Below are positions 6,082-55,435 of a DNA stretch of 64,000 bases, piece after piece. The translations under genes were made by a program, and so were the position numbers. Where the stretch lies: assembly GCA_005801425.1 (NCBI GenBank), contig SYDY01000027.1, forward strand, positions 8,444 to 72,443, given 5' to 3'. A model generated the notes under the pieces. That model was not told where the DNA came from. It was given only the letters and a program-made list of their open reading frames with translations, and made no database searches. The DNA is from Bdellovibrionales bacterium. Lineage in GTDB: Bacteria; Myxococcota; XYA12-FULL-58-9; SYDY01. Each line of letters begins with the position of its first letter. The first letter of the stretch is position 1.

Positions 6082-8739
6082 TTAAGCAATACGATCCAAT
6101 GCACGGGTCAGTTGTTGCATACGTTCGACACACGCCGCAATTTGTGCATTTTTTTCTGCAACGATCTCTTCGGGTGCACGGGCCACAAAATCGGCGTTAC
6201 TAAGCTGCTTGTCAATTTTTTCGTGGTCCTTTTGTACTTTGACCAATTCTTTGCGCAACCGATCGGATTCAGCGGCGAAATCCACAAGGCCTTCAAGAGG
6301 GACACGCACTTCCGCGTGAGGAAGCACTTCGGTGGCGGTGCGCTTGGGCAAACTGAGATCGGATGTCAGTGGATTGAGCGATGCTTTGCCCAAGGCTTCA
6401 ATGGCACTCTGATGTATTTTCAAGAGGGAAAATACGGCATCGTTGGTTTGTATGTAGGCGTTTACTTTATCTTTTGGGGATACTGTAAACTCCGCACGAA
6501 TGCGGCGAATAGCCGTAATCACGCTTTTGACGCATTCGATGTTTTCATACTCTTTGGTATTTTGCACAAGGCGCGGTTCAGGATAGCGCGCTTGCATCAC
6601 CGAGCCTTCGGTATTGGGAAGTGTTTGCCAGATCTCCTCGCTTAAAAACGGCATGACCGGATGCATCATGCGAGCAAGAGAATCAAAGATCTCAAGCAAG
6701 GTTTGTTGGACCAGCGATTTGTTGGCGCCGGAGGTTTCGCCATAGAGCGATGTTTTGGCAAGCTCTAAATACCAGTCGCAAAAGTCATCCCAAATGAATG
6801 CATACAGGGCCGAAGCGGCATCGTTAAATCGGTACGTCTCAAATGCGGCGCGCATGGCGACGATGGTGTGATCACGTTTCGATAAGATCCATTCGCGATA
6901 GGCAGCGGTTTCGGCATCCACCACACCATCATTTGCATCGGCGCGCTCTGCGGTGTTTTGCAATGAAAAACGAAATGCCTGCCAGATCTTGTTGCAAAAT
7001 TTGCTGTAACCCTCGGCACGGCTTTCATCCCAGCGTACGTCACGGCCTTGGCCTGCAAAGGCTATCATCGTGAAGCGAAATGCATCGCAACCGTATTTTT
7101 CGATCATCACCAAAGGATCGACCACGTTCCCTTTGGTTTTGGACATTTTTTCGCCCTTGGCATCGCGAATAAGCGCATGAATGTACACATCCGCAAAAGG
7201 CACATGGCCCATGAAGTGGATGCCAAACATCATCATGCGCGCAACCCAGAAAAAGATGATGTCAAAGCCTGTGGTGAGCACCGCGGTGGGGTACCAACGT
7301 TTGAGGTCCGGTGTTTTCGCAGGCCATCCCATGGTTGAAAATGCCCAAAGGGCCGAGCTGAACCAGGTATCGAGAATATCGGGATCGCGTGTGATGTTTG
7401 TGCTGCTGCAACCTGGGCATGCGGTAGGATCTTCGCGGGTAACAATTTCTTGCTGGCAATTCTGACAATACCACGCAGGAATTTGGTGGCCCCACCAAAG
7501 CTGACGCGAGACGCACCAATCTTTGATATTGCGGAGCCACGCATAATACGTATTTTCCCAGTGGGATGGCACAAATTTTGTGGTTCCGTTTTCGACGGCT
7601 GCAAGGGCAGGGCCTGCGAGGGCCCGTGCATTCACGTACCATTGTTTGGAGATCATGGGTTCTGCGATGGTATTGGAACGCTCGGATCGACCCACATTCA
7701 TCATGTGATCTTGGCTGCCACGATCAAGGCCCAATTCTGCGATGGCTTCTTTGACCGCAATGCGTGCTTTTTCTCGCGTAAGGCCTTCAAAGCGGCCTCC
7801 CACGGCATTGACTGTCGCATCGGGGTTGAACATATTGATCAAGGGCAAGTGGTGGCGTTTGGCCACCTCAAAGTCGTTGAAATCATGGGCAGGGGTTAGT
7901 TTGACAGCGCCTGTTCCAAATGCAGGATCGACCAAAATTGCATCGGCGATGATGGGAATTTCACGTCCGTTCAGCGGATGTGTCACCGTTTTTCCGATGA
8001 ATATTTTGTAACGTAAATCATCAGGATGCACAGCAATGCCGGTATCGGCCAGCATGGTTTCGGGTCTGGTGGTTGCAACGACGATTTCTTTGATATCATC
8101 GGTGGGGTTCGTGAGTGGGTATGCAAAGCTCCAGAGCTCACCTTTTACATTTTCTTCGTGCAATACTTCGAGGTCGGACAAGACCGTTTGGGCCACAGGG
8201 TCCCAATTGACAAGGCGTTCTGCGCGGTAGAGCAATCCTTCTTCGTACAAGCGCACAAACACTTCGCGTACTGCGGCCGAAAGACCTTCATCCATGGTGA
8301 AGCGCTGGCGCGACCAATCGCAACTGACACCCAGCGTACGCAACTGACCGATGATGTTGCTTTCGGCTTCGTTTTTAAATGCCCAAGCGCGCTTTAAAAA
8401 TTCTTCTCGGCCCAAATCAAATCGGTTGGTGCCTTCTTCGCGAAATTTTCGTTCAAGGACCCAGTGAACCGCGATGCTGGCATGATCGCATCCGGGGATC
8501 CAAACGACATTTTTACCAATCATACGATGGTAGCGCGCCATGGTATCTTGGAGCGTGTTGTTGAGCGCATGACCCATATGCAAGGAGCCCGTGACGTTGG
8601 GCGGGGGGATCACCATGCTGAACGATTCACCGGGTGCCTCGGGGTTGCCTTTGAAGAAACCTTGTGCTTCCCAGTGGTTGTAATAGCGTTTGCGTGCGGC
8701 CTCGGCGTCGTAATGCTTGGGTGTTTCGGCTGCGCTCAT
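6082..8739 (-). CDS. valS: Valine--tRNA ligase
   Basis: 895-aa ORF with the class I aaRS HMGH motif (SLHMGHALN) and a KMSKT-type motif ([13 protein letters not shown]). The start is probably the Met at 8739 ([11 protein letters not shown]...); the alternative is the ORF's first ATG at 8769. Confidence 0.9.
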
Positions 8740-8909
8740 GGGTGCCATCTCCGTGATCTGGGAAGGCATCGCTTAACGCGCTCCAGAATGGACGTCAACT
8801 CGGTGGCGTGAGAGATTATCTCTCTATCCCCGCGAAGCCCAGACAGCCCTTTGGGCCTAACAGGAAGTAGAGAAACTTGCGACGCAACGATACCACTTAT
8901 TTTTCTTAT

Positions 8910-8985
8910 GTAGGGGCGCTTCGCGAAGCGCCCGTGCGGCCTTTGAATCAACGTTTTATCGGGCGGTTCACGAACCGCCCCTACA
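8910..8985. repeat. Composite palindromic REP/MITE-like element (GTAGGGGCG...CGCCCCTAC), valS-murB intergenic
   Basis: A GTAGGGGCGCTTCGCGAAGCGCCC unit, a ~30 nt spacer, then the inverted unit GGGCGGTTCACGAACCGCCCCTAC. Member of a family seen at eight or more sites in this window. Confidence 0.85.
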
Positions 8986-9133: not shown

Positions 9134-10174
9134 ATGGAAACTTTAGCGAAATACACAACTTTAGGGATCGGCGGGCCTTGTGCGCATATTGCCGTTGCTG
9201 GCGATAGTGAGGCTCTTTGTGCAGCACTTCGAAATGCCCCCGATGCGCTGATTTTGGGTGGCGGAAGCAATGTGGTGATCGCCGATGAAGGCTTTTCTGG
9301 CACGATCATTCGCCTCACCAACAAAACCATTGTTGTGCGCGATGAGGGATCGCATGTGCGTGTGATCGCTGATGCAGGCGTCGTGTGGGATTTTCTTGTG
9401 GCACAAACATGCCAGGCGGGATTGGCGGAGCTTGCATGCCTCTCTGGGATCCCAGGAAGTGTCGGCGCGGCGCCTGTACAAAACATAGGTGCTTATGGCA
9501 GCGAACTCGCCCAAACGCTTGATTGTGTGCATGCGATCTCGCGTGAAACCTTGCAACCCGTGAGGCTGAGCCGTGAAGCATGCGATTTTCATTATCGTCA
9601 TAGCATTTTCAAAGGCAAAGCCCGTGATCGGTTTGTGATCACGGGAATTGAATTGTGCTTAAGCAAAAAAGAACAGCCGCATATCGAACATGGTGAACTT
9701 GCGCAGGAATTGGCGTTGATTAAAGAAAAACCCGATGCAATGCGCATACGTGAAACGGTGATTGCCATTCGTCGGCGCAAATCCATGGTACTTGATGCAA
9801 ACGATGTGAACAGCCGAAGCGTGGGATCGTTTTTCATGAATCCCATCGTAGATAAGGCTACCGCGGATCATGTTGAAGAAATCATGCAGCCTATGGGCGA
9901 GCGTTGTCCTCGATTTGTGCAGGATGATGGCCGTGTGAAACTTTCCGCAGCGCGATTGCTTGAAGCCTCTGGCATCATACGTGGTTTGCAAGAGGGAGGG
10001 GCGCGTATTTCTCAGCATCATGTGCTTGCGATCACCAATATGGGGAATGCCACTGCGCGTGATGTGGTGGCGCTTGCACAGCGTATGCGCAATGCCGTTC
10101 GCGATACGTTGGGTGTGGTGCTTGTGCCCGAGCCTGTGTTTGTGGGCTTTCCTGAAGCCATGCCTCTCTGTTAG
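9134..10174 (+). CDS. murB: UDP-N-acetylenolpyruvoylglucosamine reductase
   Basis: 346-aa ORF. An FAD-binding PCMH-type N-terminus (LGIGGPCAHIAVA...GGGSNVV) and a MurB C-terminal domain. Confidence 0.9.
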   Translation: METLAKYTTLGIGGPCAHIAVAGDSEALCAALRNAPDALILGGGSNVVIADEGFSGTIIRLTNKTIVVRDEGSHVRVIADAGVVWDFLVAQTCQAGLAELACLSGIPGSVGAAPVQNIGAYGSELAQTLDCVHAISRETLQPVRLSREACDFHYRHSIFKGKARDRFVITGIELCLSKKEQPHIEHGELAQELALIKEKPDAMRIRETVIAIRRRKSMVLDANDVNSRSVGSFFMNPIVDKATADHVEEIMQPMGERCPRFVQDDGRVKLSAARLLEASGIIRGLQEGGARISQHHVLAITNMGNATARDVVALAQRMRNAVRDTLGVVLVPEPVFVGFPEAMPLC

Positions 10175-15485: not shown

Positions 15486-15491
15486 TGCGTG

Positions 15492-16817
15492 ATGCTCGAT
15501 GCCAATGAGATCAGGCAATGGCTTGATTTCAACGTCGGATCTTTTCGGTTATCGCCTGTGTGGGTGCTCGTCTATTGGCCTATTCTTGTTGGCATCGCTG
15601 CTGCGTTTGCGTTGCGTAAAATCAAAAAAAATGAAGTGATTCGGCGTTACGGCATTCTTCTTGTGTTGCCATTGCTTATCAATATCGTGTTGCTGTTCAC
15701 GGGATGGTTTTTTCACGAGCGTATGGGACAACGCATCGATCATGCCTTGGTTCAGCATGCTGTGATTGCACCTGTGTCATGGATTTTTAATACTTTGCTT
15801 CAGATCCCTGTGATCAGAGATCAGCCTCTCCATATCGGTGTTGATTCCTTTTCTGGCTACATCGCGCCAAGTTGCGCAGGAACCCAAGGATTGTTTATTT
15901 TTACGATGCTTGCTGGCGCATGGTATTTTGTTCTTCGTCCGACGACTTTTCGGCATCGATTGATTTATTTGGTGCTTATGTGCGTTGGTCTTTGTTTGGG
16001 TTTTGTCGGCAATTGGCTGCGTCTTGTTGCGTTGCTTTATGTTGGGGCACGTGTTGATCGCGATCTGGCCCTCGCAGGATTTCATGACGCTGCAGGTGGG
16101 ATCATTGTGCTGTTGAATTTTGCATTGTTTGCGTGGGTCACGCATCGTGCATTGAAGGGTGATGATGGCAAAGCATGGTTTGCGGGCAATCCTGTGGTGC
16201 CCTATGTAATGCCTTGGATGGTGTGGATGGCATTGGGGATGCTTTCTGCGCTGGTCACGGTGCAATGGGATTGGTCGTATCCGTTGCGTGCTGTGATTGT
16301 ATTTATCATCCTAGGGGTGCTGGCTGCGCCTTTTCCTCAGACAATGATAAGGGCGGTTCGCGAACCGCCCCTACAGTCTGTTCTTGCAGGTCTATTCATC
16401 GCAGCTGTATGGATTATTTGGGGCCATTACGTGCTCGACCATGACTTTGCAGGTCGCATGCCAACTTCACTACGTTTTTATCACATGTGGATCGTCGGTC
16501 GCATTTTAGGAACCGTACTTCTGATTCCAGTGATTGAAGAACTCGCTTTTCGTGGATTTCTTGCGCGCGCTTTACAAAAGCCCATGTTTCAAGATCTCAC
16601 GCCATCGGATCTTCGTTGGCCGGCCATGCTTATTTCATCGGTGATTTTTGGTGTTTTTCACGACGCGCTTGCGGTCCCAGGCGTGGGTGCCGGATTTATA
16701 TTTGCGTTGCTTTATCGCAAGAGTGGGACGCTTGCATCCCCGATCATTGCGCATGCTGTTGCAAATCTTGGTGTCGCTTTGTACGCGCTAACCACAGGGC
16801 AGTGGCAGCATCTTTAA
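15492..16817 (+). CDS. Exosortase fused to a CPBP (CAAX protease/Abi) intramembrane metalloprotease domain (exosortase E/protease-like)
   Basis: N-terminal polytopic domain with the exosortase Cys motif (IAPSCAGTQG), GNWLRLV (Asn/Arg) and a GFHDAAGG His motif. C-terminal CPBP motifs EELAFRGF, FGVFH and HAVAN. The ORF's GTG at 15489 is an alternative start. Confidence 0.75.
   Translation: MLDANEIRQWLDFNVGSFRLSPVWVLVYWPILVGIAAAFALRKIKKNEVIRRYGILLVLPLLINIVLLFTGWFFHERMGQRIDHALVQHAVIAPVSWIFNTLLQIPVIRDQPLHIGVDSFSGYIAPSCAGTQGLFIFTMLAGAWYFVLRPTTFRHRLIYLVLMCVGLCLGFVGNWLRLVALLYVGARVDRDLALAGFHDAAGGIIVLLNFALFAWVTHRALKGDDGKAWFAGNPVVPYVMPWMVWMALGMLSALVTVQWDWSYPLRAVIVFIILGVLAAPFPQTMIRAVREPPLQSVLAGLFIAAVWIIWGHYVLDHDFAGRMPTSLRFYHMWIVGRILGTVLLIPVIEELAFRGFLARALQKPMFQDLTPSDLRWPAMLISSVIFGVFHDALAVPGVGAGFIFALLYRKSGTLASPIIAHAVANLGVALYALTTGQWQHL
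16351..16374. repeat. Single REP-like unit (GGGCGGTTCGCGAACCGCCCCTAC) inserted in-frame within the exosortase-CPBP coding sequence
   Basis: Exact match to the repeat family unit. It translates as (R)AVREPPLQ(S) at the junction between the exosortase and CPBP domains. Confidence 0.8.
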
Positions 16818-19100: not shown

Positions 19101-19183
19101 TGGTAACCGCTCAGGAGATCTGGGCCATCGTATCTAAAATTGTTTCAGCGATCTCTGTTTAAGCATATCGTTAGCGTTGCCTT

Positions 19184-19663
19184 GCCATCCGTGTGCAGGT
19201 CCTCGCACGTCCACAAAAGCCACGTGACGCGCATGACTTTTGACTTGAATGTGTGTTTCTTGAGCGCGTCACAACGCTTTTGTGTCTTGTGCTCCGGTCC
19301 GTTCACACGGCAAGTGGCAAGGCAACGCTGTTTAGGGTTCGATGATTTTTCAGCCATCGCAGAGCCGGAGTTCCCGATTTTGCGGGGATGGCATCTTGAT
19401 ATGATCGGGCTGCATATCTACATATGTGACCAAGAGCGAGATACACGGGGTTCAATTTCAATCATAGAATGTTATCTGTTCTCTTTTGGTATACATGGTT
19501 AGTGTGACATGACAGCAAGCAGTGTCTCGCCACTTGCCGTGTGAACGGACCGGAGCACAAGACACAAAAGCGTTGTGACGCGTTTAAAAAATCCACTTCA
19601 CATCAAAATTTTATGCGCGTCACGTGGCTTTTGTGGACGTGCGAGGACCTGCACACGGATGGC
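19184..19663. repeat. Large imperfect inverted repeat (two perfect arm blocks of 51 and 54 bp separated by a symmetric 30-nt mismatch, with a 210-nt central loop)
   Basis: 19184-19234 is the reverse complement of 19613-19663, and 19265-19318 is the reverse complement of 19529-19582. The 30-nt segments 19235-19264 and 19583-19612 are not complementary. Intergenic between the ALDH gene and the GGDEF gene. Confidence 0.9.
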
Positions 19664-21080: not shown

Positions 21081-22523
21081 TTATTTTTTACCCGTTTTAA
21101 CCCTAGGCATGTTTTTGGGCCAAGTGAAGGAAAATGTTGAACCTCGATCCTTGGATTCAAGTGTGATGGTACCACCAGCCTGCTTTACGAGTTTTTTTAC
21201 GAGGGATAAACCAATGCCACTGCCTTCGACAGAATCGCGAGGCTTAAGTGTTTGAAACATTTGAAATATTTTATCGTGAAATTTGCTAGGGATCCCAGGG
21301 CCATCATCAGCGACGATGAAGTTGAAAAATGCTGTATTTTTTGCATCTTGGGCCGAGATTGTAATGCACCCATTGGTGCGATCATGGTGTTTGATGGCAT
21401 TTCCTATGAGGTTCATGAACACGCGTTTCAGTGACAATGGGGTCGTTGTTAAAATGGGCATGGGGTGCGTGATATTAATTGTAAAACCAGCGGGGATGTT
21501 TAATAGGTCGATGACCTCTTTGATGAGGGCTTTCGTATCGACCAACTCGACATTTTCTAAATCCTTTCCAGCCCGTGCATAGTCTAAAATATCCGTGAGA
21601 AGATGATCCATTCTTTTAACGCGCCCACGCAGGAGCTTCATGTGTTCTTGGCGTTCTCCAACAAGAACGTCTTTAAGATCCTCAATGAGCCATTGCGAAA
21701 GCGAGTCAATGGCACGCAGGGGTGCACGGAGATCATGGGAAGCGGCGTAGGCGAATTGCTGAAGTTCTGAGTTGACGTGTTCTAGCTCACCGTTGATTCG
21801 TGTCAGTGTGTTTTGGAACTCTTTTTGCTCTGTGATGTCGATGCATGAACCGATGAAACCTATCATGGTGCCATCTTCTTGAAAGCGTGGCACACCTTGG
21901 TCGTAAATCCATCGGTATTCGCCATCGGCGCGGCGAAGACGATACTCCATGACAAAAGATTGTCCTTCTACAAAGTGTTCCATATAGGTGTGCATACAAC
22001 GTTGGAAATCTTCAAAGTGCACACCTTCGACCCAACCGACGCCAAGTTCCTGCTCAATCGTTCTTCCTGTGAAGTGCAGCCATCCTTCATTGAAAAAATA
22101 GCATTCGGAATCGACTCCTGCCATCCAGATCATGACAGGCGCGTAATCGGCCATGACCCGAAAGCGTGTTTCGAGTTCTCGAATTTGTTGACCTGTGTGT
22201 GCCTGTTCGGAGATGTGGCGAACAAAGGTGACGGTACCGCGTTGACTGCGGACCATGCGTCCTTCGTACCAGCTTGAGGTATTGGGCGTGGGGAGTTCGT
22301 ATTCGAATGTCTCCACACCGCCTTCTAGAAGCACACGTGCGCTTCGATCCAGGATGAGCTTACTTACGTCTAGGGGAAATACTTCACGTATATGTTTACC
22401 ACGCGTCCATTTTGGCCATTTTTCCATGGGTTTGGGGGGATTGTGAAACGAAAGACATACACCTTTAGGATCAAGTTCGAAGGCCATGTCGGGAAGAAGA
22501 TCTAAAAGTGCAGGGTCGCTCAT
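21081..22523 (-). CDS. Cytoplasmic PAS-domain sensor histidine kinase
   Basis: 480 aa with no TM segments. PAS/PAC region, then HisKA (ASHDLRAPLRAI) and HATPase_c (GSGIGLSLVKKLV). The start ATG overlaps the stop of the monooxygenase beta-subunit gene (ATGA). Confidence 0.85.
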   Translation of the reverse strand: MSDPALLDLLPDMAFELDPKGVCLSFHNPPKPMEKWPKWTRGKHIREVFPLDVSKLILDRSARVLLEGGVETFEYELPTPNTSSWYEGRMVRSQRGTVTFVRHISEQAHTGQQIRELETRFRVMADYAPVMIWMAGVDSECYFFNEGWLHFTGRTIEQELGVGWVEGVHFEDFQRCMHTYMEHFVEGQSFVMEYRLRRADGEYRWIYDQGVPRFQEDGTMIGFIGSCIDITEQKEFQNTLTRINGELEHVNSELQQFAYAASHDLRAPLRAIDSLSQWLIEDLKDVLVGERQEHMKLLRGRVKRMDHLLTDILDYARAGKDLENVELVDTKALIKEVIDLLNIPAGFTINITHPMPILTTTPLSLKRVFMNLIGNAIKHHDRTNGCITISAQDAKNTAFFNFIVADDGPGIPSKFHDKIFQMFQTLKPRDSVEGSGIGLSLVKKLVKQAGGTITLESKDRGSTFSFTWPKNMPRVKTGKK

Positions 22524-23488
22524 GCTGAGATCCCTTCAAGACCGGCTTCACGCCAGAGTTTGTTTTGTAGTTGACGTACCGACGTACGTACGGATGCTCC
22601 TTTCGTTTCAAAAAGAGAAAGAAAAGGTGCAATCGCAGCGTCACAGATCGGCACCCATTTTTCGATCCAGCTCTGCACGAACATGGCATTTTTAGGCGAT
22701 TCGGTGATGCAAAATGTGACGAATGCTTGCATCCATTCGCGATGCCAGCGTGTATCCTCCTCAAGAGAAGCTAGGACTTTTGTGAGGATCTCGTCACCTG
22801 AGCGTTCAGCGAGACATGCCAATTGGGTGAGAAATAGGGCATCGAATGCGGGTTTTAGAACGAGGTTGAGTGCGGTGATTGTTTCACCCCACGCATATGT
22901 GACGAGAAGTTTTTCGATAGCCATCCGCATGGGTTGCCACATGGGATCTTCTTGCCAAAGGGCTTTTCCTGATTGAGCGAACTTGGGATGCGTGATCTGT
23001 ATTTGACGGAGACGATAGGCAAAGCGTTGGGTACGTCGCATTTCGTCGGCCGCTTGGAGTGCACAGGTGACAACCAAGCGACCACTTGGCGCGATGTGCC
23101 CCACGTATGCTGCAATCATTTGCAAGCCGTGGGTTGGATAAAGAATGGGACCCAAGATCCCACTCAGCGTTGCCAGCCACTGGGGTGTTAGGCGTTGATC
23201 GTATCCTGTCTCGTCGACGGATCGCAGAAGGCCATCGACGTAGATCTCCTTCTCATTCTGAAGCATCGTATATTTCGTATACGTGGTTTCACGCGGATCT
23301 CGGAATTGCTCCCAATCGGTTACTTGAAGCGGACAGTTTTTCTGTTGTGTGAGCAACCATTCGCCAGACGGGGTATGAACTTCAAAGCCTCGATTGGTGT
23401 AATAAAGAAGTTTTGATGTGCTGATATCATAATCCGACGGCTTTTTTTTCAAACCTTCAAGATGCCACCACGTACGTTGTGCTGTCAT
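22520..23488 (-). CDS. Soluble diiron monooxygenase hydroxylase beta subunit (TmoE/toluene-4-monooxygenase-like)
   Basis: ORF 22520..23506. The ATG at 23488 overlaps the effector gene stop (TAATG). Length ~322 aa and N-terminus RTWWHLEGLKKKPSDYDI resemble TmoE. Confidence 0.8.
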   Translation of the reverse strand: MTAQRTWWHLEGLKKKPSDYDISTSKLLYYTNRGFEVHTPSGEWLLTQQKNCPLQVTDWEQFRDPRETTYTKYTMLQNEKEIYVDGLLRSVDETGYDQRLTPQWLATLSGILGPILYPTHGLQMIAAYVGHIAPSGRLVVTCALQAADEMRRTQRFAYRLRQIQITHPKFAQSGKALWQEDPMWQPMRMAIEKLLVTYAWGETITALNLVLKPAFDALFLTQLACLAERSGDEILTKVLASLEEDTRWHREWMQAFVTFCITESPKNAMFVQSWIEKWVPICDAAIAPFLSLFETKGASVRTSVRQLQNKLWREAGLEGISA

Positions 23489-23784
23489 TATTTCCCAAAG
23501 GCCCAAATGGCCTCCTCCTCATTGATGGTCAACTTGCCTTTAAACGATGGCATGCAAAGTTCGAGATCACCTGGCAATAGGAATGGACGTCCGAGTGCTT
23601 GTTCGACAGCCGATCGTTTGAGTGTGCATTGCATAGGAACGGACACGCGGAGATAGGAACCTCGATCAAGGACAACGACACCCTTATTCAACTTTCGGAT
23701 TGCTGTGACGATGGCATTTGCAACATCACCGACTTCGAGAACCGGACCTACGCTATTGCTCTGCTCGCTAGGTATTGGCTTCAT
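23488..23784 (-). CDS. Monooxygenase effector/coupling protein (MmoB/DmpM/TmoD family)
   Basis: ORF 23488..23838. The internal start MKPIPSEQSNSVGPVLEVGD aligns with the TmoD N-terminus. ~98 aa. Confidence 0.7.
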   Translation of the reverse strand: MKPIPSEQSNSVGPVLEVGDVANAIVTAIRKLNKGVVVLDRGSYLRVSVPMQCTLKRSAVEQALGRPFLLPGDLELCMPSFKGKLTINEEEAIWAFGK

Positions 23785-24112
23785 GGTGTGTTCCGGGTGG
23801 GTTTGGTGGAATATCAACCAGTATATTGCCATCGACAATTTTTACGTCGAAAGGACGCAAGCAAACCGACCGAGGATTGATCCCTTGGCCTGTGCGCGCA
23901 TCGTAGGAGTAGAAATGTGCACAACATGTGAGTACATCATCTTGTAGCAAGCCTTCGCTGATGGCCACTCCCAAATGGGCACAACGATCTTCGTAGGCAT
24001 AGATGGTTTCATCGATGCGGACGAGTAGGACTTTCGTACCTTCAATTTCACATCCGATCATATCACCTTGCCAGAGTTCATCGACGGGCATTATTTTTTG
24101 GAATGCCATCAA
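23768..24112 (-). CDS. Rieske [2Fe-2S] ferredoxin component (TmoC-like)
   Basis: 114 aa with CxH...(17)...CxxH ligands (RCAHLG ... TCCAHF). Confidence 0.75.
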   Translation of the reverse strand: MMAFQKIMPVDELWQGDMIGCEIEGTKVLLVRIDETIYAYEDRCAHLGVAISEGLLQDDVLTCCAHFYSYDARTGQGINPRSVCLRPFDVKIVDGNILVDIPPNPPGTHHEANT

Positions 24113-24351
24113 ATATTCTCCGCAATCACATCGATTCGATCGAGTGCAGAAAGGCCGACTTCAGCGATGGTGAGTTCAGGATCTAGAAGTTCTCCATGAC
24201 GGTAGACTTGTGCATATGTTTTGGGTTTGACGCGGACCGAGGCGGCTTCTTGTAGACTTGCTGCGAGATCTTTGATCCTGTCTGTGTCATGCACGAGAAC
24301 GACCAGCCCGATGGTATCGCCTTTTAAGAATCCAAAGAGAGGTACAAGCAT
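24109..24351 (-). CDS. Monooxygenase gamma subunit (TmoB-like)
   Basis: ORF 24109..24474. The Met at 24351 (MLVPLFGFLKGDT...) starts 5 nt after the alpha-subunit stop. ~80 aa, the size of TmoB. Confidence 0.65.
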   Translation of the reverse strand: MLVPLFGFLKGDTIGLVVLVHDTDRIKDLAASLQEAASVRVKPKTYAQVYRHGELLDPELTIAEVGLSALDRIDVIAENI

Positions 24352-24355
24352 GGCA

Positions 24356-25843
24356 TTAACCTTTCGATAATTGCATCCAAGGGTATCTGCCTCCCGCAAC
24401 ATCTTTGCCCCATATGCTCGGCGTGAGATCGAAGTATCGTAGGAGTTCAAACAGATTGCCTGGCGCTTCTCCACTGAGGATCCGCATCACAACATCTTTG
24501 TGATGCTCATAACGTTCTGGCTCGCTTTCGAAGATCCAACGGCATGGTTTCGAACAGAAGACATACTTGCGCGCGCCGCGCGTGATCACCTCCGCGGAGT
24601 TACGTTCCGGCGAACCACCACACAAGACGAGCTGACAGAGGTTGCAAAAAGTAACGGGTGTTGCACCATGGGTGTACCACTCGACGCCAGGGCCAGATTT
24701 ACGCCAGCGGTTTGTGATTTGCTCCCAGATGGGATCGAAAAGCGGCCAGGTCTTTGCATATTTTTCCTGAAGCCAGGTTCTTTCTTCTGGACCTGGCAGT
24801 GCGAAGTTGAACCAGGTTGTTGCACGGTATGTGTAAGCACTTGCGTAAACCATGTGATGGTAGGTGTCGATGGCATCCAGGAACTGTTGCCAGTACCATG
24901 GCAATGCGAGCCCCATTTCTTCAAGTGAGCGCTTGAACTGATCGAGCACCCATTCTTGCATGAATTCTTTAAATGATTGTGTCCGATGTTTGAGCGGCGT
25001 CAGGTAATCCATGCTGAAGCCGGTGATGACGGCAAAGAAAAGCCAGTTTCGCCAGAACCATTTGTCGACCAGATATTGGGCACGCTTGGGATCGTGCGCG
25101 ATTATTTTTTGGAGGACGGGATGCCCTATTTGGGCGTGACGTGCTTCATCGGTTTGGATGCTTTTGACCATTTTCTCGAACATGCGATCGCCGGCAGCAT
25201 GTGCCATGGTCGATAGACCAATGAACTGGAGATTGGTGAAGCCGGTTTCAAAAACAAAATTGGTGCCGACAGCGAACTCCATGGGATCTGATGTGATAAG
25301 GAGTTCATCGACGAGATGACGGCCTGCGATGGCAATCCAGTTGTTGGTGTGAAAAAATTTGTGGGTCCAGTCAAATTGAGGATCCCATCGGACCAATTCG
25401 TGCATGATGAGCAGTGGGATCTGGGCGTGACGAAGTTCATCCAATGCGCCGAGGAGTGCTGTTGTGCGCCATGCGCTATCGCGCCCAAAGCGGGCCGCGC
25501 GAAGATTCCCCACAACTGCTGCAAATTCAGCCAATGCAAGTGTTGCCGCGTGGAGCTTTAATCCGTTGATCCAAGAAGGGTCATGTTTCTGAAAGTCCTC
25601 CACCTTGCCGACGGCATCACGCACCGCATGGACGGAAGCTTCTTTGATGGACTGATTTTTTACGTATTCTGTGTAGGATGTACGATAGGGTTCATCCCAA
25701 TCCTTCCATGTTTCGGCTGTGAGCCATGGGGAACCGCTGATTTCTTCGGGAAAGACCTCTCGTTCCTCAACATAAGAGAAGTCCCAATCGAGCTTTCGTG
25801 CTAGATCGAGCCAGTCGTCGCGCTTTAGCATGGCGCTCCCCAT
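24356..25843 (-). CDS. Soluble diiron monooxygenase hydroxylase alpha subunit (toluene-4-monooxygenase TmoA-like, group 2 SDIMO)
   Basis: 495 aa with diiron ligand motifs E...DELRH and E...DEARH (LGALDELRHAQ; SIQTDEARHAQ). Global similarity to the TmoA/TouA layout. Confidence 0.85.
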   Translation of the reverse strand: MGSAMLKRDDWLDLARKLDWDFSYVEEREVFPEEISGSPWLTAETWKDWDEPYRTSYTEYVKNQSIKEASVHAVRDAVGKVEDFQKHDPSWINGLKLHAATLALAEFAAVVGNLRAARFGRDSAWRTTALLGALDELRHAQIPLLIMHELVRWDPQFDWTHKFFHTNNWIAIAGRHLVDELLITSDPMEFAVGTNFVFETGFTNLQFIGLSTMAHAAGDRMFEKMVKSIQTDEARHAQIGHPVLQKIIAHDPKRAQYLVDKWFWRNWLFFAVITGFSMDYLTPLKHRTQSFKEFMQEWVLDQFKRSLEEMGLALPWYWQQFLDAIDTYHHMVYASAYTYRATTWFNFALPGPEERTWLQEKYAKTWPLFDPIWEQITNRWRKSGPGVEWYTHGATPVTFCNLCQLVLCGGSPERNSAEVITRGARKYVFCSKPCRWIFESEPERYEHHKDVVMRILSGEAPGNLFELLRYFDLTPSIWGKDVAGGRYPWMQLSKG

Positions 25844-26029
25844 CGGTTATCCGATTTATCATCATGAGAAATAGGGCATGATGATCTTATAGTGTAGTGC
25901 AATGTATGTAAAGGTTTTGTAGAGGCGATCAGGACCGCCCGGTTTGAACAATATTCTGCACCCTCGAGCTGTATATACTTGCTCCTGTCCTCGCCACGCT
26001 GCATGAATGCAAAATCTTTCGGAGTTTTG

Positions 26030-27220
26030 ATGAGCCAAATACCTTCAATGAACGATCTCGATCTGGATGGCCGCGCAGTTTTTTTGCGGCTCGATCTCAA
26101 TGTCCCCATGAAAGATGGTGTGATCACAAGTGACGCGCGTATTCGTGCATCGCTTCCTACCATTGAAAAGGCCTTGCTGGCAGGCGCACGTGTGGCCATT
26201 GCATCGCACTTTGGACGTCCCAAGGGCGGACCAGATCCCAAGTATTCGCTTGAGCCGGTCGCGGTGCACTTGGCATCGCTTCTCAATGTGGACGTGTTAT
26301 TTGTGGACGATTGCGTGGGTGATGGCGTGAAGGGCGTGATGCAATCGCTTCATACCGGACAAATCGCATTGCTTGAAAATTTGCGCTTCCATCCCGAAGA
26401 AGAGGCCGGAGATATCAATTTTGCCAAACGTTTGGCTGCGCCGTTTTCTGTTTACATCAACGATGCTTTTGGTGCGTCCCACCGCAAACATGCGTCCATC
26501 GTCGGTGTTCCAATGCAGATGCAGGTTGTTGCGGCAGGGCTTCTGATGGAACGCGAAGCGCAGGCTTTGGGCAGGCTTCTTGAAGCCCAAAAAGACCGTT
26601 TTGTGGCCATTGTGGGGGGCGCCAAAGTGAGCGACAAACTTGGCGTGATGCGATCGCTTCTAAATCGTGTGGATACGCTCTGTATAGGTGGCGCCATGGC
26701 CTACACGTTTTTAAAAGCATCGGGTGTGGATGTTGGCATTTCACGTATCGAATCGGATCAATTAAGAGTGGCCTCGGATATTTTGCTGGGTGCCCGTGCA
26801 CGCGGCGTACGCATCATGCTTCCGACCGATCACATTGTGGCCCATACATTTGAAGAAAGCGCCCGCCCACTTACCGTGGAAAACATCAATGTGAATGAAA
26901 TGGGACTTGATATTGGACCTCGGACCGCTGCGGCTTATGCCGAGGTGATCAAAGAAGCCAAAACTATTTTCTGGAATGGGCCCATGGGTGTGTTTGAATG
27001 GCCGTCATTTGCCAAAGGCACACAGGCTATTGCCCAAGCGGTTGCAGGATCGCGTGGCTACAGCGTGGTGGGTGGCGGTGATTCGGTGGCGGCGGTTGAA
27101 GCGAGCGGTGTTGCCAACAAGATCGATCATATTTCTACAGGCGGTGGTGCAAGTCTCGAATTTTTAGAATTGGGTGGCTTGCCTGGCATTGATGCTTTAA
27201 CCAACAAGGTTAGGAAATAA
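26030..27220 (+). CDS. pgk: Phosphoglycerate kinase
   Basis: ORF 25979..27220. The probable start is the Met at 26030 (MSQIPSMNDLDLDGRAVFLRLDLNVP). Typical Pgk motifs are present. Confidence 0.9.
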   Translation: MSQIPSMNDLDLDGRAVFLRLDLNVPMKDGVITSDARIRASLPTIEKALLAGARVAIASHFGRPKGGPDPKYSLEPVAVHLASLLNVDVLFVDDCVGDGVKGVMQSLHTGQIALLENLRFHPEEEAGDINFAKRLAAPFSVYINDAFGASHRKHASIVGVPMQMQVVAAGLLMEREAQALGRLLEAQKDRFVAIVGGAKVSDKLGVMRSLLNRVDTLCIGGAMAYTFLKASGVDVGISRIESDQLRVASDILLGARARGVRIMLPTDHIVAHTFEESARPLTVENINVNEMGLDIGPRTAAAYAEVIKEAKTIFWNGPMGVFEWPSFAKGTQAIAQAVAGSRGYSVVGGGDSVAAVEASGVANKIDHISTGGGASLEFLELGGLPGIDALTNKVRK

Positions 27221-28071: not shown

Positions 28072-28136
28072 GTAGGGGCAGACCTCCGTGTCTGCCCTGA
28101 TCACGAACAAGAGCGGACACGGGGGTCTGCCCCTAC
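28072..28136. repeat. Variant composite palindromic element (GTAGGGGCAGACC...GGTCTGCCCCTAC)
   Basis: Shares the terminal GTAGGGGC/GCCCCTAC inverted ends of the repeat family, with a different inner hairpin. It lies in the tpiA-secG intergenic region and could serve as a bidirectional terminator. Confidence 0.7.
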
Positions 28137-36741: not shown

Positions 36742-37961
36742 GGTTTTGGAATCGTTTCATCGTAAATTTTTAGACCGCGAATGGCCGTTGAATAGTAGGC
36801 GATCACAAGACGACCTTGGCTGTCTGCAGCCATGGCAAGATATTTCCCCACGGGGCCTTCGGTGTCGATGACGGTATGCGTCCATACGCCGCTCGCATAG
36901 CGCAAAAGATCAAACGTTTCGTGGTCGGGCCGCCTCGGGGTGATATGCTCAAAGGCAATGGCCAAATCACCGTTGGGCAATTGCGCTTGTGCCATATTGC
37001 CGACGCCCTTAAACACGCGCTGATCATGCCATGTTCCGGTGCTGTCTTGTTCTGCAACACGGATATTGATGGGGAGACCGGCTGTGTACGTCACACGCGG
37101 CAATTGACCGACCCAGCTTAATTGACTGTGCCAACCATGGGAATGATCTTCTCCGATGCGTTCTTGTTTGAGTGCATTGAGTGGGCCATGGGCCACGTAA
37201 AGTTCGGTGTCTCGGGCATTCCAATCCACAAAAGAGATCCACCATTGATCGCCCTGTTGCTGTACATCGATGCGGGCAGAATATCCGCCGGTGGCGTCAA
37301 ATAGGATGGTTTTTACCCACTCGCCATCTTTGGGCCCGCGTGTGGCATGGACCAATTTTCCACCGGCTGTGTAATAAAAAACATGCGGACTATTTTGTGC
37401 GTCAAATCGCAATTCCGCACCCATGCCGACTTCATGGCCCCATGCAATCTCTTCGGTTTTCCAAGGTGCAGCTTCGTTGTCGCGCGTTGCGATGCGTAAC
37501 TTTTTCTGATCTTGATCGTGAAATGCGATGGCAAGGTGATTATTTTTGTCGGAAGCGATTGACGTGTATTTGCCTATATTGCCTTGGGTGATGACGTCTT
37601 CAACAACCCATGAATCGCCATGTTTTGTGGCGTATTTAAGATCGCCTTGGTGGGCATCGCAAAAGCTGACGTGGGGTCGGTCTTTGGCATCAAAGATAAC
37701 GCTTGGCCACCATCCTGTGTCGCCTTCTTCACCGCCACTTGCAAGGACGCCTAAACTTGCATGCGGTGGATTTTGTTCTTCGACAACAACGATGTTTTTT
37801 GTGCATGCGGTGAGGATAAGCAAAATCACTGCAAGGCATTTATAGGTAGGGGTGGTTCGTGAACCGCCCTTAACAAAATCGTCATTCTCATGAATACGGG
37901 GTTCTGTGAAGAAGGGCGGTTTGCGAACCGCCCCTACAACGCTGCAATTCTTTCTCTTCAC
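36738..37961 (-). CDS. Hypothetical lipoprotein with beta-propeller-like repeats
   Basis: The ATG at 37961 overlaps the holA stop (ATGA). The N-terminus reads through repeat element 37846-37937 (…VGAVRKPP…GGSRTTPTY), then KCLAVILLILTAC (lipobox LTAC). The mature part contains repeated W/D-rich blades. Confidence 0.55.
   Translation of the reverse strand: MKRKNCSVVGAVRKPPFFTEPRIHENDDFVKGGSRTTPTYKCLAVILLILTACTKNIVVVEEQNPPHASLGVLASGGEEGDTGWWPSVIFDAKDRPHVSFCDAHQGDLKYATKHGDSWVVEDVITQGNIGKYTSIASDKNNHLAIAFHDQDQKKLRIATRDNEAAPWKTEEIAWGHEVGMGAELRFDAQNSPHVFYYTAGGKLVHATRGPKDGEWVKTILFDATGGYSARIDVQQQGDQWWISFVDWNARDTELYVAHGPLNALKQERIGEDHSHGWHSQLSWVGQLPRVTYTAGLPINIRVAEQDSTGTWHDQRVFKGVGNMAQAQLPNGDLAIAFEHITPRRPDHETFDLLRYASGVWTHTVIDTEGPVGKYLAMAADSQGRLVIAYYSTAIRGLKIYDETIPKP
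37846..37937. repeat. Composite palindromic REP/MITE-like element embedded in the 5' end of a lipoprotein gene
   Basis: GTAGGGGTGGTTCGTGAACCGCCC, a 44-nt spacer, then GGGCGGTTTGCGAACCGCCCCTAC. Confidence 0.85.
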
Positions 37962-45268: not shown

Positions 45269-45359
45269 GTAGGGGCGGTTCGCGAACCGCCCTGTTGTTC
45301 TCAATACATTGTTCGCGCCAATACGTTTGCCTAACGGGCCGTTCACGAACGGCCCCTAC
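45269..45359. repeat. Composite palindromic REP/MITE-like element
   Basis: GTAGGGGCGGTTCGCGAACCGCCC, a 43-nt spacer, then GGGCCGTTCACGAACGGCCCCTAC. It lies between rodA and a truncated nucleotidyltransferase ORF. Confidence 0.85.
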
Positions 45360-50480: not shown

Positions 50481-51209
50481 TTAAGGTAAATCCGCAATCT
50501 TTGATGGTGTTAAATCCCAGGTCATTTGAGTGGTTCCAAGTGCGCTTGCGATGCGCATAACAAACTTGGTGGTATGGGGCTCTATGACCAATTTGTCTGT
50601 GGGGTCAATCAGAGGAAAGCGGACCAAATACGCTCGGTCAAAATCCCCGAGATAGCCATAAACGGCTTTTAAATTGGCATCGATTTTGACCCGTGAAATT
50701 TGGGCGGCCTGAACGGTAATATTCTGATCCGGATTGGTGAGCGTGATGCGCCAAATGGAGTCTGCGCGATCAAGGTCGTTCCATTTGAGATCGGGTGTAT
50801 AGGCTTTGAGTAAAAACGTATGGAACGTTTCGGCGTCGCTTGAAAGATCAACCAATTCGCGGCGTGTAACCTCGCCCCCATGACCGTAGATATCGGGGAA
50901 TTTTAAACCGAATGCACGCCTAAATTGCGGGGCATGAAATGTTGATGATGCAAACAATACATTGTCGAGAACATTGTAGAGTTTGGCATGTCGTGTCCAT
51001 TGGGCGAACGTACGATCGTAATCACGATCGTCAACTTCGCTGATAGAACCGAACAGTGTAGGCGGTGGGATAGGTTTGCATGCCGAAAGGAGCGCGAGCA
51101 AGATGAAGGCAAGGGCGGTTCGCGAACCGCCCCTACAAAAAAACAGTGTGGGGGTCGTTCGTGAACGACCCTTATTTAATAAAATCAGATTTCTTAAAGA
51201 GACTCGCAT
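50481..51209 (-). CDS. Hypothetical lipoprotein
   Basis: ORF 50481..51350 overlaps pyrE upstream. The first ATG at 51209 gives MRVSLRNLILLNKGRSRTTPTLFFCRGGSRTALAFILLALLSAC (lipobox LSAC). This N-terminus is encoded by repeat units 51113-51170. Start uncertain. Confidence 0.45.
   Translation of the reverse strand: MRVSLRNLILLNKGRSRTTPTLFFCRGGSRTALAFILLALLSACKPIPPPTLFGSISEVDDRDYDRTFAQWTRHAKLYNVLDNVLFASSTFHAPQFRRAFGLKFPDIYGHGGEVTRRELVDLSSDAETFHTFLLKAYTPDLKWNDLDRADSIWRITLTNPDQNITVQAAQISRVKIDANLKAVYGYLGDFDRAYLVRFPLIDPTDKLVIEPHTTKFVMRIASALGTTQMTWDLTPSKIADLP
51113..51170. repeat. Two adjacent REP-like units (GGGCGGTTCGCGAACCGCCCCTAC, a short A-rich spacer, then GTGGGGGTCGTTCGTGAACGACCC)
   Basis: The units are arranged opposite to the composite elements elsewhere (inverted unit first). 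Located at the pyrE 3' end and the lipoprotein 5' end. Confidence 0.8.
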
Positions 51210-52353: not shown

Positions 52354-52364
52354 GGTTCGTGTCC

Positions 52365-52694: not shown

Positions 52695-52707
52695 GTGTTC
52701 TCCTGGT

Positions 52708-53049: not shown

Positions 53050-53138
53050 GGCGCTAGACTCCTGCATATGTATTCAAACAGTGGTTAATCGACCACCTAC
53101 ATGGAGTCAAGTTTGTCGGAAGAGGTGGTGGGGGTTAC

Positions 53139-55411: not shown

Positions 55412-55435
55412 GGGCGGTTCGCGAACCGCCCCTAC
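55412..55435. repeat. Single REP-like unit (GGGCGGTTCGCGAACCGCCCCTAC), followed by a GC-rich hairpin
   Basis: Exact family unit upstream of hemL. The adjacent sequence CGCCCCCGCCTTCGCGAGGG resembles the CCCCGCCTTCGCGGGG hairpin at 9084-9100. Confidence 0.8.

What the first reader, a model, noticed from the sequence alone, without database searches (positions are those of the whole stretch)
8910..8985. Family of GTAGGGGCGGTTCGCGAACCGCCC palindromic elements dispersed through the window
The 24-nt unit is itself a palindrome core (GGGCGGTTCG|CGAACCGCCC) with a GTAG/CTAC cap. It occurs as composite hairpin elements, made of a unit, a 25-45 nt spacer and the inverted unit with termini GTAGGGGCG…CGCCCCTAC, at 8910-8985, 29829-29903, 37846-37937 and 45269-45359. 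A variant lies at 28072-28136. Single or tail-to-tail units lie at 16351-16374, 51113-51170 and 55412-55435. That is eight sites in 64 kb, a high density. They sit at gene boundaries (valS/murB, tpiA/secG, rodA/MNT remnant, hemL upstream) and also inside coding sequences. The elements look like REP/BIME or MITE repeats and could serve as a species signature.
Basis: seen in the sequence. Interest (0 to 1): 0.6.

Follow-up and report, generated by a model that had tools for sequence, protein, structure and literature searches.

The report
GTAG-tagged REP/REPIN repeat family
The repeats are real and are textbook bacterial REP/REPIN elements: short GTAG-capped DNA hairpins thought to be copied by a domesticated RAYT transposase. 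The same hairpin occurs in bacteria of many phyla, so it belongs to a known kind and is not a signature of this species.

Summary
The window has 12 canonical units of GTAGGGGCGGTTCGCGAACCGCCC and 2 units of a sister family, at 8 sites, against 0 expected by chance. All 8 stem pairs are paired in every unit, and 4 of the 8 show compensatory changes. Five sites are inverted dimers with the GTAG ends outward (REPIN-like), one is a dimer with the heads inward, and two are single units.

The REP/BIME reading is right. GTAG foot, 8-bp stem starting with three G-C pairs and dimer layout match the GTAG-tagged REP superfamily, and specifically the "long" REPs tied to TnpA_REP subclass 2.4 (RAYT group 4; Quentin 2018).

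The "species signature" idea is wrong. The exact motif occurs in more than 118 loci, from Chloroflexota and Acidobacteriota to Cyanobacteria and Bacteroidota. In RAYT-like genes of other genomes the REP lies in frame inside the gene, encoding RGGSRTAPT. Of 167 retrieved homologues, 155 carry a REP-derived peptide, and compensatory variants keep the palindrome. This feature is already published.

No RAYT gene lies in the window or in about 15 kb of extra flank, so local mobilisation is inferred, not shown. One unit is truly in frame inside an exosortase/CPBP-protease gene.

Verdict: a new member of a known kind, of modest interest.

The parts
8910..8984 (.). REPIN-like inverted dimer with GTAG ends outward. 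Unit 8910-8933 (+) is GTAGGGGCGCTTCGCGAAGCGCCC, a compensatory G-C to C-G stem variant. Unit 8961-8984 (-) follows a 27-nt spacer. It lies between the divergent valS (6082-8769, -) and murB (9134-10174, +).
   Evidence: DNA fold -24.4 kcal/mol, z -5.5; shares about 85 nt at 90.6% identity with the 29829 copy
16351..16374 (-). Single unit with an exact match. It is in frame inside the exosortase E / CPBP-protease fusion gene 15489-16817 (+). It encodes RAVREPPL (aa 288-295) between the exosortase and protease domains.
   Evidence: (TIGR04162, 148 bits, one alignment spanning aa 84-440)
28072..28136 (.). Inverted dimer of a sister REP family. It has the same GTAG+GGGC foot but a different stem (GTAGGGGCAGAC-CTCCGT-GTCTGCCC); the second unit is degenerate. 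It lies between the convergent tpiA (27220-27996, +) and secG (28195-28671, -).
   Evidence: (-26.8 kcal/mol, z -8.3); the same stem type sits next to a canonical REP in L094
29829..29903 (.). REPIN-like inverted dimer of 75 nt, with units 29829-29852 (+) and 29880-29903 (-). It is a copy of the 8910 element, with the same spacer. It lies between two co-directional - strand genes and inside the called 5' end of ORF 29175-29954, a predicted lipoprotein.
   Evidence: a Logan contig of the same organism ends inside it, at window position 29856
37846..37937 (.). REPIN-like inverted dimer with units 37846-37869 (+, carrying a G-T pair) and 37914-37937 (-), and a 44-nt spacer. It lies just after the holA stop (37958) and inside the called 5' end of ORF 36738-37961.
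   Evidence: (-29.3 kcal/mol, z -8.5)
45269..45359 (.). REPIN-like inverted dimer with units 45269-45292 (+, exact) and 45336-45359 (-, the GGGCCG...CGGCCC compensatory variant), and a 43-nt spacer. It lies 23 nt after the rodA stop (45246) and 32 nt before a 5'-truncated nucleotidyltransferase ORF (45391-45606).
51113..51171 (.). Dimer with heads inward. Unit 51113-51136 (-, exact) is followed by 11 nt, then a GTGG-headed degenerate unit at 51148-51171 (+), GTGGGGGTCGTTCGTGAACGACCC. It directly abuts the stop codon of the phosphoribosyltransferase gene 51172-51750 (-).
55412..55435 (-). Single unit with an exact match, between co-directional - strand genes and 18 nt upstream of the hemL start (55394).
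   Evidence: a Logan contig of the same organism starts exactly at this unit
25919..25944 (+). Possible decayed unit (TTTTGTAGAGGCGATCAGGACCGCCC) in the divergent intergenic region upstream of pgk. It is marginal.
   Evidence: (12.6 bits, E=0.16)

Best explanation
These are GTAG-tagged repetitive extragenic palindromes (REPs), mostly arranged as inverted doublets (REPINs).

**Unit.** Each unit is a GTAG tetranucleotide directly followed by an 8-bp stem that starts with three G-C pairs, and a 4-nt loop.

**Proposed mechanism.** This is inferred from biochemistry on other RAYT groups. On transiently single-stranded DNA the unit folds into a hairpin. A Y1/HUH REP-associated tyrosine transposase (TnpA_REP, or RAYT) recognises the hairpin. 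It uses GTAG as a guide to cleave at a nearby CT or CA dinucleotide and rejoin. This copies REP doublets to new sites without target-site duplications.

**Cognate enzyme class.** The likely partner is TnpA_REP subclass 2.4 (RAYT group 4). [quoted passage not shown] They are scattered patchily over many phyla, which explains why an identical REP is found in unrelated bacteria.

**Local effects.** These are secondary and depend on position. Elements sit as 3' hairpins after rodA, tpiA/secG and the PRTase gene. One unit is an in-frame 8-residue cassette in an exosortase/CPBP protease. Two doublets may be read through at the 5' ends of two predicted lipoprotein genes.

**Shown:** the repeat family, the hairpin covariation, the dimer architecture, the cross-phylum distribution, and the REP embedded in RAYT-like genes elsewhere.

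**Inferred:** that a RAYT exists in this genome and still moves these copies.
For: - **Repeat family.** 14 strand-matches against 0 expected. The covariance-model census gives 12 canonical plus 2 variant units.
- **Hairpin.** 100% of cells are paired and 4 of 8 pairs have compensatory changes. The GTAG or GTGG head is invariant at G, T and G.
- **Dimers.** The long hairpins fold with z-scores of -3.6 to -8.5. Two dimers (8910 and 29829) share the spacer and about 10 nt of left flank, 90.6% identity over 85 nt, so the doublet was copied as a unit.
- **No consistent target-site duplication**.
- **Other genomes.** The same 24-mer lies in more than 118 loci of many phyla, 44 of them 'double-foot' palindromes.
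- **RAYT-like genes.** In L017, L067 and L080 the REP lies in frame inside a RAYT-like gene. L013, L082 and L087 hold RAYT-like fragments near a REP. The gene scores 69 bits on NCBIfam REP_Tyr_transpos and sits at about threshold on Pfam Y1_Tnp.
- **Homologues.** Of 167 retrieved, 155 carry a REP-derived peptide at the same loop. Some carry it in another reading frame or as partial tandem duplications.
- **DNA check.** Compensatory variants keep the palindrome: GGGCGC...GCGCCC in L126, which is the same variant as window units 8910 and 29829, and GGGCGGG...CCCGCCC in L128.
- **Literature.** Subclass 2.4 is defined by exactly these traits (PMC6006769). The GTAG superfamily and REPs inside genes are described in PMC3733652. 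RAYT cleavage at CT or CA, guided by GTAG, is shown in PMC8266576.
- **Copy number hint.** Contigs of the same organism from another run break at two REP sites, as expected for a multi-copy repeat.
Against: - No Y1/RAYT gene is in the 64-kb window (tblastn), nor in about 9 kb upstream and about 6 kb downstream.
- Genome-wide copy number is not measured.
- The two assemblies of this organism show no REP polymorphism. No close relative exists for an empty-site test, since the next-best PolA is only 58% identical. Mobility is therefore not demonstrated.
- RAYT subclass 2.4 has no biochemical data; the published assays cover groups 2 and 3 only.
- The window has no double-foot unit.
- In three RAYT loci examined, no flanking REPs lie within 4 kb of the gene. 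How the internal REP relates to dispersed copies is unclear.
Confidence: 0.8

Rival explanations
1. Relic population. The REPs were seeded by a RAYT that has since been lost from this genome. They now persist only as neutral or host-exploited hairpins, for example for mRNA 3' stabilisation or protein binding. Compensatory changes would come from selection on the hairpin or from gene conversion, not from ongoing transposition.
For: No RAYT was found in the window or its flanks. There is no REP polymorphism between the two assemblies. There are degenerate units at 51148 and 28111-28136, and a possible relic at 25919. REPtrons are reported to be lost in some lineages (PMC3733652).
Against: Only about 80 kb of a genome of several Mb was inspected, and RAYTs are typically single-copy. 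Four units are identical to the consensus and two doublets are 90.6% identical, which suggests fairly recent copying.
Confidence: 0.15
2. Host regulatory hairpins. The elements would be intrinsic terminators or attenuators that arose in place and only look like a repeat family.
For: Several elements lie just after stop codons (rodA, the PRTase gene, tpiA/secG). The consensus scan flags three units as terminator-like.
Against: The tails are poor in T, and the total of terminator-like sites is within or near shuffle expectation. One element lies between divergent promoters, one inside a gene and one 18 nt before a start codon. Near-identical 24-mers here and in many phyla cannot arise independently.
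Confidence: 0.02
3. Classical MITEs or fragments of an insertion sequence: either terminal inverted repeats of a DDE-type IS, or the subterminal hairpins of an IS200/IS605 (TnpA/TnpB) element.
For: The inverted-repeat architecture of 65-92 nt resembles MITEs. IS200/IS605 ends also carry hairpins with a 5' guide tetranucleotide.
Against: There is no consistent target-site duplication. The two arms are each self-palindromic REPs rather than simple terminal repeats. No transposase ORF adjoins any copy. Clustering the neighbours of 118 loci found no recurrent neighbour except the RAYT-like gene. The associated protein matches RAYT motifs (WQ, YIxxNP), not IS200 TnpA.
Confidence: 0.03

Closest known systems
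REPs cognate to TnpA_REP subclass 2.4 (RAYT group 4), Quentin et al. 2018, PMC6006769
   Same: These are long canonical REPs with a 5' GT[AG]G foot and three consecutive G-C pairs at the base of the stem. Double-foot GTAG...CTAC forms occur in other genomes. The REP is inserted in frame in the tnpA_REP gene between HuH and Y. The protein motifs are NHxH, WQ and YIxxNP, at about 170-230 aa. The distribution across phyla is patchy.
   Different: No tnpA_REP gene was found in the window. The window has single-foot units and doublets only. The host is an uncultured lineage related to Myxococcota, whereas the phyla highlighted for this subclass are Cyanobacteria and Bacteroidetes. The HuH hydrophobic residue is mostly L, against the published NH[IFV]H.
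GTAG-tagged REP superfamily (Di Nocera et al. 2013, PMC3733652; Nunvar et al. 2010, PMC2817692)
   Same: A GTAG tag sits at one end of a 6-13 bp stem with a short loop. Subfamilies differ by complementary stem changes. Dimers occur with GTAG outside or inside. Copies lie mostly between unidirectional or convergent genes, with occasional in-frame copies inside genes.
   Different: I could not place this consensus in a specific numbered family (GTAG-1 to -24), because the figure with the consensus sequences is not held in the library.
REPINs of Pseudomonas fluorescens and E. coli (Bertels & Rainey 2011, PMC3116915)
   Same: Two inverted REPs are separated by a short spacer and form a long hairpin. 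The doublet is duplicated as a unit (8910 and 29829).
   Different: Those REPINs belong to RAYT groups 2 and 3 and are described as vertically inherited within a lineage. This REP sequence is shared across phyla. The cognate RAYT here is not identified.
IS200/IS605 subterminal hairpins with guide tetranucleotides (IS608, ISDra2)
   Same: A hairpin preceded by a 4-nt guide is recognised as single-stranded DNA by a Y1 HUH enzyme, and no target duplication is produced.
   Different: These copies are not the ends of an element that carries tnpA or tnpB. They are solitary or doublet copies only.

Membership tests
GTAG-tagged REP | GT[AG]G tetranucleotide directly at the 5' foot of the stem-loop | tested here: met
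   GTAG in 11 of 12 canonical units and GTGG in one; G, T and the last G are invariant
GTAG-tagged REP | Short (20-40 nt) palindromic stem-loop kept by complementary changes | tested here: met
   8-bp stem and 4-nt loop; 100% of cells paired; 4 of 8 pairs changed on both sides; 0 of 500 shuffles reach the score
GTAG-tagged REP | Many dispersed copies per genome | tested here: inconclusive
   14 units at 8 sites in 64 kb, and contig breaks at REPs in another assembly. The whole genome was not available. No new full copy was found in about 15 kb of extra flank, apart from one half-unit near a contig end.
REPIN | Two REPs in inverted orientation with a short spacer, folding as one long hairpin | tested here: met
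   Five sites with GTAG outward and spacers of 13-44 nt; fold z-scores of -3.6 to -8.5
REPIN | The doublet, not the single REP, is the replicating unit | tested here: inconclusive
   One pair of doublets shares spacer and flank (90.6% over 85 nt). The other doublets have unrelated spacers.
REPIN | A cognate RAYT gene in the same genome, usually flanked by the REPs | not testable with these tools
   No RAYT in the window or flanks. The rest of the genome cannot be reached.
REP of TnpA_REP subclass 2.4 | Long REP whose stem starts with three consecutive G-C pairs | tested here: met
   GGG...CCC is invariant in all 12 units
REP of TnpA_REP subclass 2.4 | Double-foot variants (GT[AG]G ... C[TC]AC) | tested here: inconclusive
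   None in the window; the single units end in TT, not CTAC. There are 44 double-foot sites among the 118 loci from other genomes.
REP of TnpA_REP subclass 2.4 | [quoted passage not shown] | tested here: met
   Seen in other genomes: L017, L067, L080, L126, L127 and L128, and in 155 of 167 homologues. Not testable for this genome.
REP of TnpA_REP subclass 2.4 | Protein motifs NH[IFV]H, WQ and YIxNNP, about 194 aa | tested here: met
   The homologues have PNH[LIFVM]H, WQRNYYEH and YIxxNP at 162-257 aa. They score 69 bits on NCBIfam REP_Tyr_transpos, below its 80-bit cut-off.
Classical MITE (DDE-type) | Terminal inverted repeats flanked by a fixed-length target-site duplication | tested here: not met
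   There is no consistent direct repeat at the eight sites. Only 45269 has a nearby AGGATT on both sides.
Intrinsic terminator | G+C-rich hairpin followed directly by a T-run | tested here: not met
   Three units are flagged, but with weak tails. Site counts are not clearly above shuffles.
Rfam RNA families | Match to a curated covariance model | tested here: not met
   Only one tRNA in the window reaches a gathering score

The most novel reading that the evidence does not exclude
The subclass 2.4 RAYT gene may carry its own substrate hairpin in frame as a heritable 'seed'. Transfer of this one gene into a new host would then be enough to found a new REP/REPIN population. That would explain why an identical 24-28 nt REP is found in more than a dozen phyla, including this Myxococcota-like MAG.

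Under this reading, the loop between HuH and alpha-C is a self-targeted hotspot where REPs are repeatedly inserted, duplicated and replaced. The evidence for this is that REPs appear there in different reading frames and as partial tandem copies.

The same stop-poor hairpin would also be tolerated as an in-frame peptide cassette in host proteins (RGGSRTAPT, VGAVREPPL or GRFANRPY). Candidates here are the exosortase/CPBP loop and the n-regions of two lipoprotein signal peptides.
Probability: 0.3. Interest if true: 0.55.

Novelty: new member of a known kind. Interest (0 to 1): 0.3.

Why it matters
**For this genome.** The elements are ordinary repeat landmarks. They explain assembly breaks. They should be masked when calling gene starts, because two called ORFs run through them. 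They mark one real in-frame insertion in an exosortase/protease.

**More broadly.** The data show concretely that one REP sequence is shared, letter for letter, by bacteria of many phyla. Inside the RAYT gene the REP is kept palindromic by compensatory changes. This fits the published picture of subclass 2.4 as a horizontally moving RAYT, not the vertically inherited REPIN-RAYT model.

It also means this motif cannot be used as a taxonomic signature.

Tried and rejected
- **Rfam scan of the window.** Only a tRNA was found.
- **tblastn of two RAYT-like proteins against the window.** The only hits were the 8-10 residue REP-coded stretches.
- **Walking out of the window.** I used the first and last genes to reach about 9 kb and about 6 kb of extra sequence. 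There was no RAYT. The only new item was a half-unit near a contig end.
- **Clustering of ORFs within 300 nt of the motif in 118 loci.** No recurrent neighbour appeared except the RAYT-like gene at a handful of loci. This leaves no sign of a linked cargo or a TnpB.
- **Metagenome scan for the REPIN-specific spacer of 8910/29829.** 0 hits.
- **Plasmid and phage collections.** The REP was absent apart from one 92% partial hit. Only distant RAYT-like genes (31-38% identity) were found, on five non-mobilizable plasmids. No transfer vehicle was identified.
- **Empty-site comparison.** It was not possible. The nearest PolA is 58% identical, and the two assemblies of the organism differ at 11 positions, none of them in a REP.
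- **Alignment of the exosortase/CPBP protein with 19 homologues (25-30% identity).** The REP-coded residues lie in a length-variable loop, and the window protein is about 4 residues longer than most. A clean insertion cannot be shown.
- **Target-site duplication search.** Negative.
- **Terminator scan.** Not convincing.
- **Strand bias of single units against GC skew.** All three single units have the head on the - strand and the skew is positive throughout. With n=3 I drew no conclusion.

Full report

Yes. The 24-mer GTAGGGGCGGTTCGCGAACCGCCC matches 14 times on the two strands at up to 3 mismatches. None is expected from 100 dinucleotide-preserving shuffles. Every GTAGGGG or CCCCTAC heptamer in the window belongs to one of the reported elements.

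I aligned the 12 canonical units and built a covariance model from them. Run over the whole window with filters off, the model recovers exactly those 12 units (40-51 bits). It also finds their palindromic opposite-strand shadows and the two units of the variant dimer at 28072-28136. The only other candidate is a marginal, decayed-looking copy at 25919-25944 (E=0.16).

Two refinements apply:
- The second unit at 51148-51171 carries a GTGG head. It faces the first unit head to head across 11 nt.
- The variant at 28072-28136 has the same GTAG+GGGC foot but a different stem, GGGCAGAC/GTCTGCCC.

**2. Anatomy**

A unit is GTAG followed directly by an 8-bp stem (GGGCGGTT/AACCGCCC) and a 4-nt loop.
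- All 96 stem cells across the 12 units form standard pairs.
- Four of the eight pairs show changes on both sides, for example GGGCGC...GCGCCC, GGGCCG...CGGCCC and GGCTC...GAGCC.
- No shuffle out of 500 reaches the observed covariation score, and sliding the partner by 1 to 3 columns destroys the pairing.

Five sites are inverted dimers with the GTAG ends outward and spacers of 13 to 44 nt. As single-stranded DNA they fold into one long hairpin, or two adjacent ones, at -21 to -29 kcal/mol with z-scores of -3.6 to -8.5.

The dimers at 8910 and 29829 share their spacer and about 10 nt of left flank, 90.6% identity over 85 nt. That doublet was therefore duplicated as a unit. The other dimers have unrelated spacers.

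There is no consistent target-site duplication.

**3. Context**

The window comes from an uncultured organism. The same sequence is on ENA contig ERZ27257035:k141_910289 (253 kb) and on Logan contigs from SRR8894381. Its PolA is only 58% identical to the nearest other proteins, which come from Myxococcota and 'Deltaproteobacteria' MAGs.

| Site | Gene context |
|---|---|
| 8910 | between divergent valS and murB |
| 28072 | between convergent tpiA and secG |
| 45269 | 23 nt after the rodA stop, next to a 5'-truncated nucleotidyltransferase ORF (Pfam Polbeta/NTP_transf_2 from profile position about 24) |
| 51113 | abutting the stop codon of a phosphoribosyltransferase gene |
| 55412 | 18 nt upstream of the hemL start |

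*Inside coding sequences.* This claim is firm for one site only. Unit 16351-16374 is in frame inside ORF 15489-16817. That ORF matches exosortase E/protease TIGR04162 in a single alignment spanning residues 84-440, with Pfam exosortase and Rce1-like domains on either side. The unit encodes RAVREPPL at residues 288-295. In an alignment with 19 homologues of 25-30% identity, this stretch falls in a length-variable loop and the window protein is about 4 residues longer than most. No close homologue exists to prove an insertion.

*The two dimers at gene starts.* The dimers at 29829 and 37846 lie in the called 5' ends of two ORFs whose downstream sequence looks like a lipoprotein signal peptide. 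For 29175-29954 there is no in-frame ATG, GTG or TTG between the dimer and the hydrophobic core. Translation would therefore have to start inside or upstream of the dimer. This is suggestive but rests on ORF logic only. The REP has no stop codon in two of its three frames, so ORFs easily run through it by chance.

*Terminators.* A consensus terminator scan flags three units, but with poor T-tails and without clear enrichment. Rfam finds nothing but a tRNA.

**4. Related sequences elsewhere: the main surprise**

I scanned one genome per species of GTDB for GTAGGGGCSSTTCRYGAASSGCCC. By my own estimate fewer than one chance hit is expected, since the pattern covers 64 sequences of length 24 in about 1.2e12 positions.

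The hosts include Dehalococcoidia and other Chloroflexota, Acidobacteriota, Omnitrophota, Nitrospinota, Planctomycetota, Cyanobacteriota, Desulfobacterota, Myxococcota, Binatia, KSB1, Calditrichota, Kiritimatiellota, Bacillota (Oscillospiraceae, Clostridia), Bacteroidota (Parabacteroides), Actinomycetota (Rubrobacter), and Alpha- and Gammaproteobacteria including Thiothrix. The motif is therefore not a species signature.

In those loci I counted 44 perfect 28-nt 'double-foot' palindromes (GTAG...CTAC) and 88 single-foot units.

Clustering all ORFs within 300 nt of the motif gave only one recurrent neighbour, a roughly 180-aa protein. In L017, L067 and L080 the REP lies inside that gene, in frame, encoding RGGSRTAPT. 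It sits between PNHLHGII (the HuH motif) and LGRLIGAFKTVSTK. L013, L082 and L087 hold fragments of such a gene near a REP. The protein matches NCBIfam 'REP-associated tyrosine transposase' at 69 bits, below that model's 80-bit cut-off, and sits at about threshold on Pfam Y1_Tnp.

Homologue searches support the link:
- A search with this protein saturated at about 8000 hits. All 120 best hits (51-99% identity, from many phyla) carry RGGSRTAPT or a variant at the same place.
- To remove the word-index bias I repeated the search with the insert deleted. Of the 47 new top hits, 38 still carry a REP-derived peptide. Two have it in another reading frame (VGAIRESPL, VGAVREPPP) and many carry partial tandem copies. 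Overall, 155 of 167 proteins carry one.

At the DNA level the variants are compensatory. L126 has GTAGGGGCGCTTCGCGAAGCGCCCCTAC, the same stem variant as window units 8910 and 29829. L128 has GTAGGGGCGGGTCGCGACCCGCCCCTAC. The palindrome, not the peptide, is what is conserved.

**5. Comparison with what is known**

All of this is already described.
- Di Nocera et al. 2013 (PMC3733652) defined the GTAG-tagged REP superfamily. It has stems of 6-13 bp, complementary stem variants, dimers with GTAG outside or inside, families shared by distant species, and occasional REPs inside genes.
- Quentin et al. 2018 (PMC6006769) defined TnpA_REP subclass 2.4, which is Bertels' RAYT group 4. The traits match point by point:
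  - motifs NH[IFV]H, WQ and YIxNNP, with a median length of 194 aa;
  - 'long' REPs whose stem base is three G-C pairs;
  - 'double foot' REPs;
  - as a unique feature, REPs inserted in frame within the tnpA_REP gene between HuH and Y;
  - a patchy taxonomic distribution attributed to horizontal transfer.

  The proteins found here have PNH[LIFVM]H, WQRNYYEH and YIxxNP at 162-257 aa.
- Mechanistic knowledge comes from groups 2 and 3 only. Purified RAYTs bind the single-stranded REP, cleave at CT or CA next to it, and use GTAG as a guide sequence (PMC8266576).

No paper in the searchable library contains the sequence strings themselves.

**6. What is not shown**

- No RAYT gene lies in the window or in the roughly 15 kb of additional flank I could reach.
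- The rest of the genome is out of reach with these tools, so genome-wide copy number and the presence of a cognate RAYT are untested.
- Indirect support for a high copy number is that a short-read contig of the same organism ends inside the 29829 dimer and another starts exactly at the 55412 unit.
- Mobility is not demonstrated. The two assemblies differ at 11 positions, none in a REP, and no close relative is available for empty-site analysis.
- The REP is absent from the plasmid and phage collections. Only distant RAYT-like genes occur on a few large plasmids.
- A metagenome scan for the 8910-type spacer found nothing.

**7. Verdict**

The finding is a real and correctly delimited REP/REPIN family. 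It is best assigned to the REPs associated with TnpA_REP subclass 2.4.
- The MITE label is only loosely right.
- The 'species signature' idea is wrong.
- 'Inside coding sequences' holds firmly for one unit.

It is a new member of a known kind, in a lineage where such elements had not been noted. Interest is modest.

The most novel reading still open is that the RAYT gene's internal REP acts as a portable seed that founds REP populations after single-gene transfer. I give that about 0.3.

Noticed in passing
window 19181-19318 and 19523-19663: A second, unrelated repeat. Two roughly 140-nt arms in inverted orientation (about 91% identical) flank about 200 nt. Each arm contains its own palindrome (CACAAAAGCCACGTGACGCGC ... 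GCGCGTCACAACGCTTTTGTG). It lies between an aldehyde dehydrogenase gene and a GGDEF response-regulator gene. It could be a MITE or a regulatory region.
   Followed up: partly
L002 (ends at window 29856); L124 (starts at window 55412); L123 18122: Short-read contigs of the same organism from another run end or start exactly at REP units. The ENA contig ends about 140 nt after a half-unit (GTAGGGGCGGTTCGTGTGTACG...). The REPs act as assembly breakpoints.
   Followed up: partly
window 29175-29954 (-) and 36738-37961 (-): Two ORFs called by the public gene caller run through REPIN dimers at their 5' ends and continue into lipoprotein-like signal peptides (…FFCVSC, …LLILTAC). In the first ORF no canonical start codon lies between the dimer and the signal peptide. 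Part of the REPIN (GRFAKRPY) may therefore be translated.
   Followed up: partly
window 45391-45606 (+): A 71-aa ORF matches nucleotidyltransferase domains (Polbeta / NTP_transf_2) only from profile position about 24 onward. It is a 5'-truncated MNT-like gene starting 32 nt after the 45269 REPIN.
   Followed up: yes
window 21081-25843 (-): An operon for a soluble di-iron (phenol/toluene-type) monooxygenase (Phenol_Hydrox x2, MmoB_DmpM, Rieske, TmoB). Beside it is a PAS histidine kinase and two response regulators.
   Followed up: no
P0084, P0016, P0394, P0416 (RAYT homologues from other genomes): Some RAYT genes show tandem partial duplications bounded by the internal REP. P0084 repeats IIMPNHMHGIICINDVGRGGS. 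P0394 has three GGGSRTAPTVIGATGGGGGV repeats. The hairpin seems to drive local rearrangement inside the gene.
   Followed up: partly
L024 2980-5592; L006, L117 and others: In other phyla the same REP or REPIN is also read through in frame inside large unrelated ORFs. An example is VGAVREPPVSVNDS...GGSRTAPT in an 871-aa protein of L024.
   Followed up: no
window 51775-53100 (-): Three tandem bactofilin paralogues lie just upstream of the PRTase gene that ends at the 51113 REP pair.
   Followed up: no
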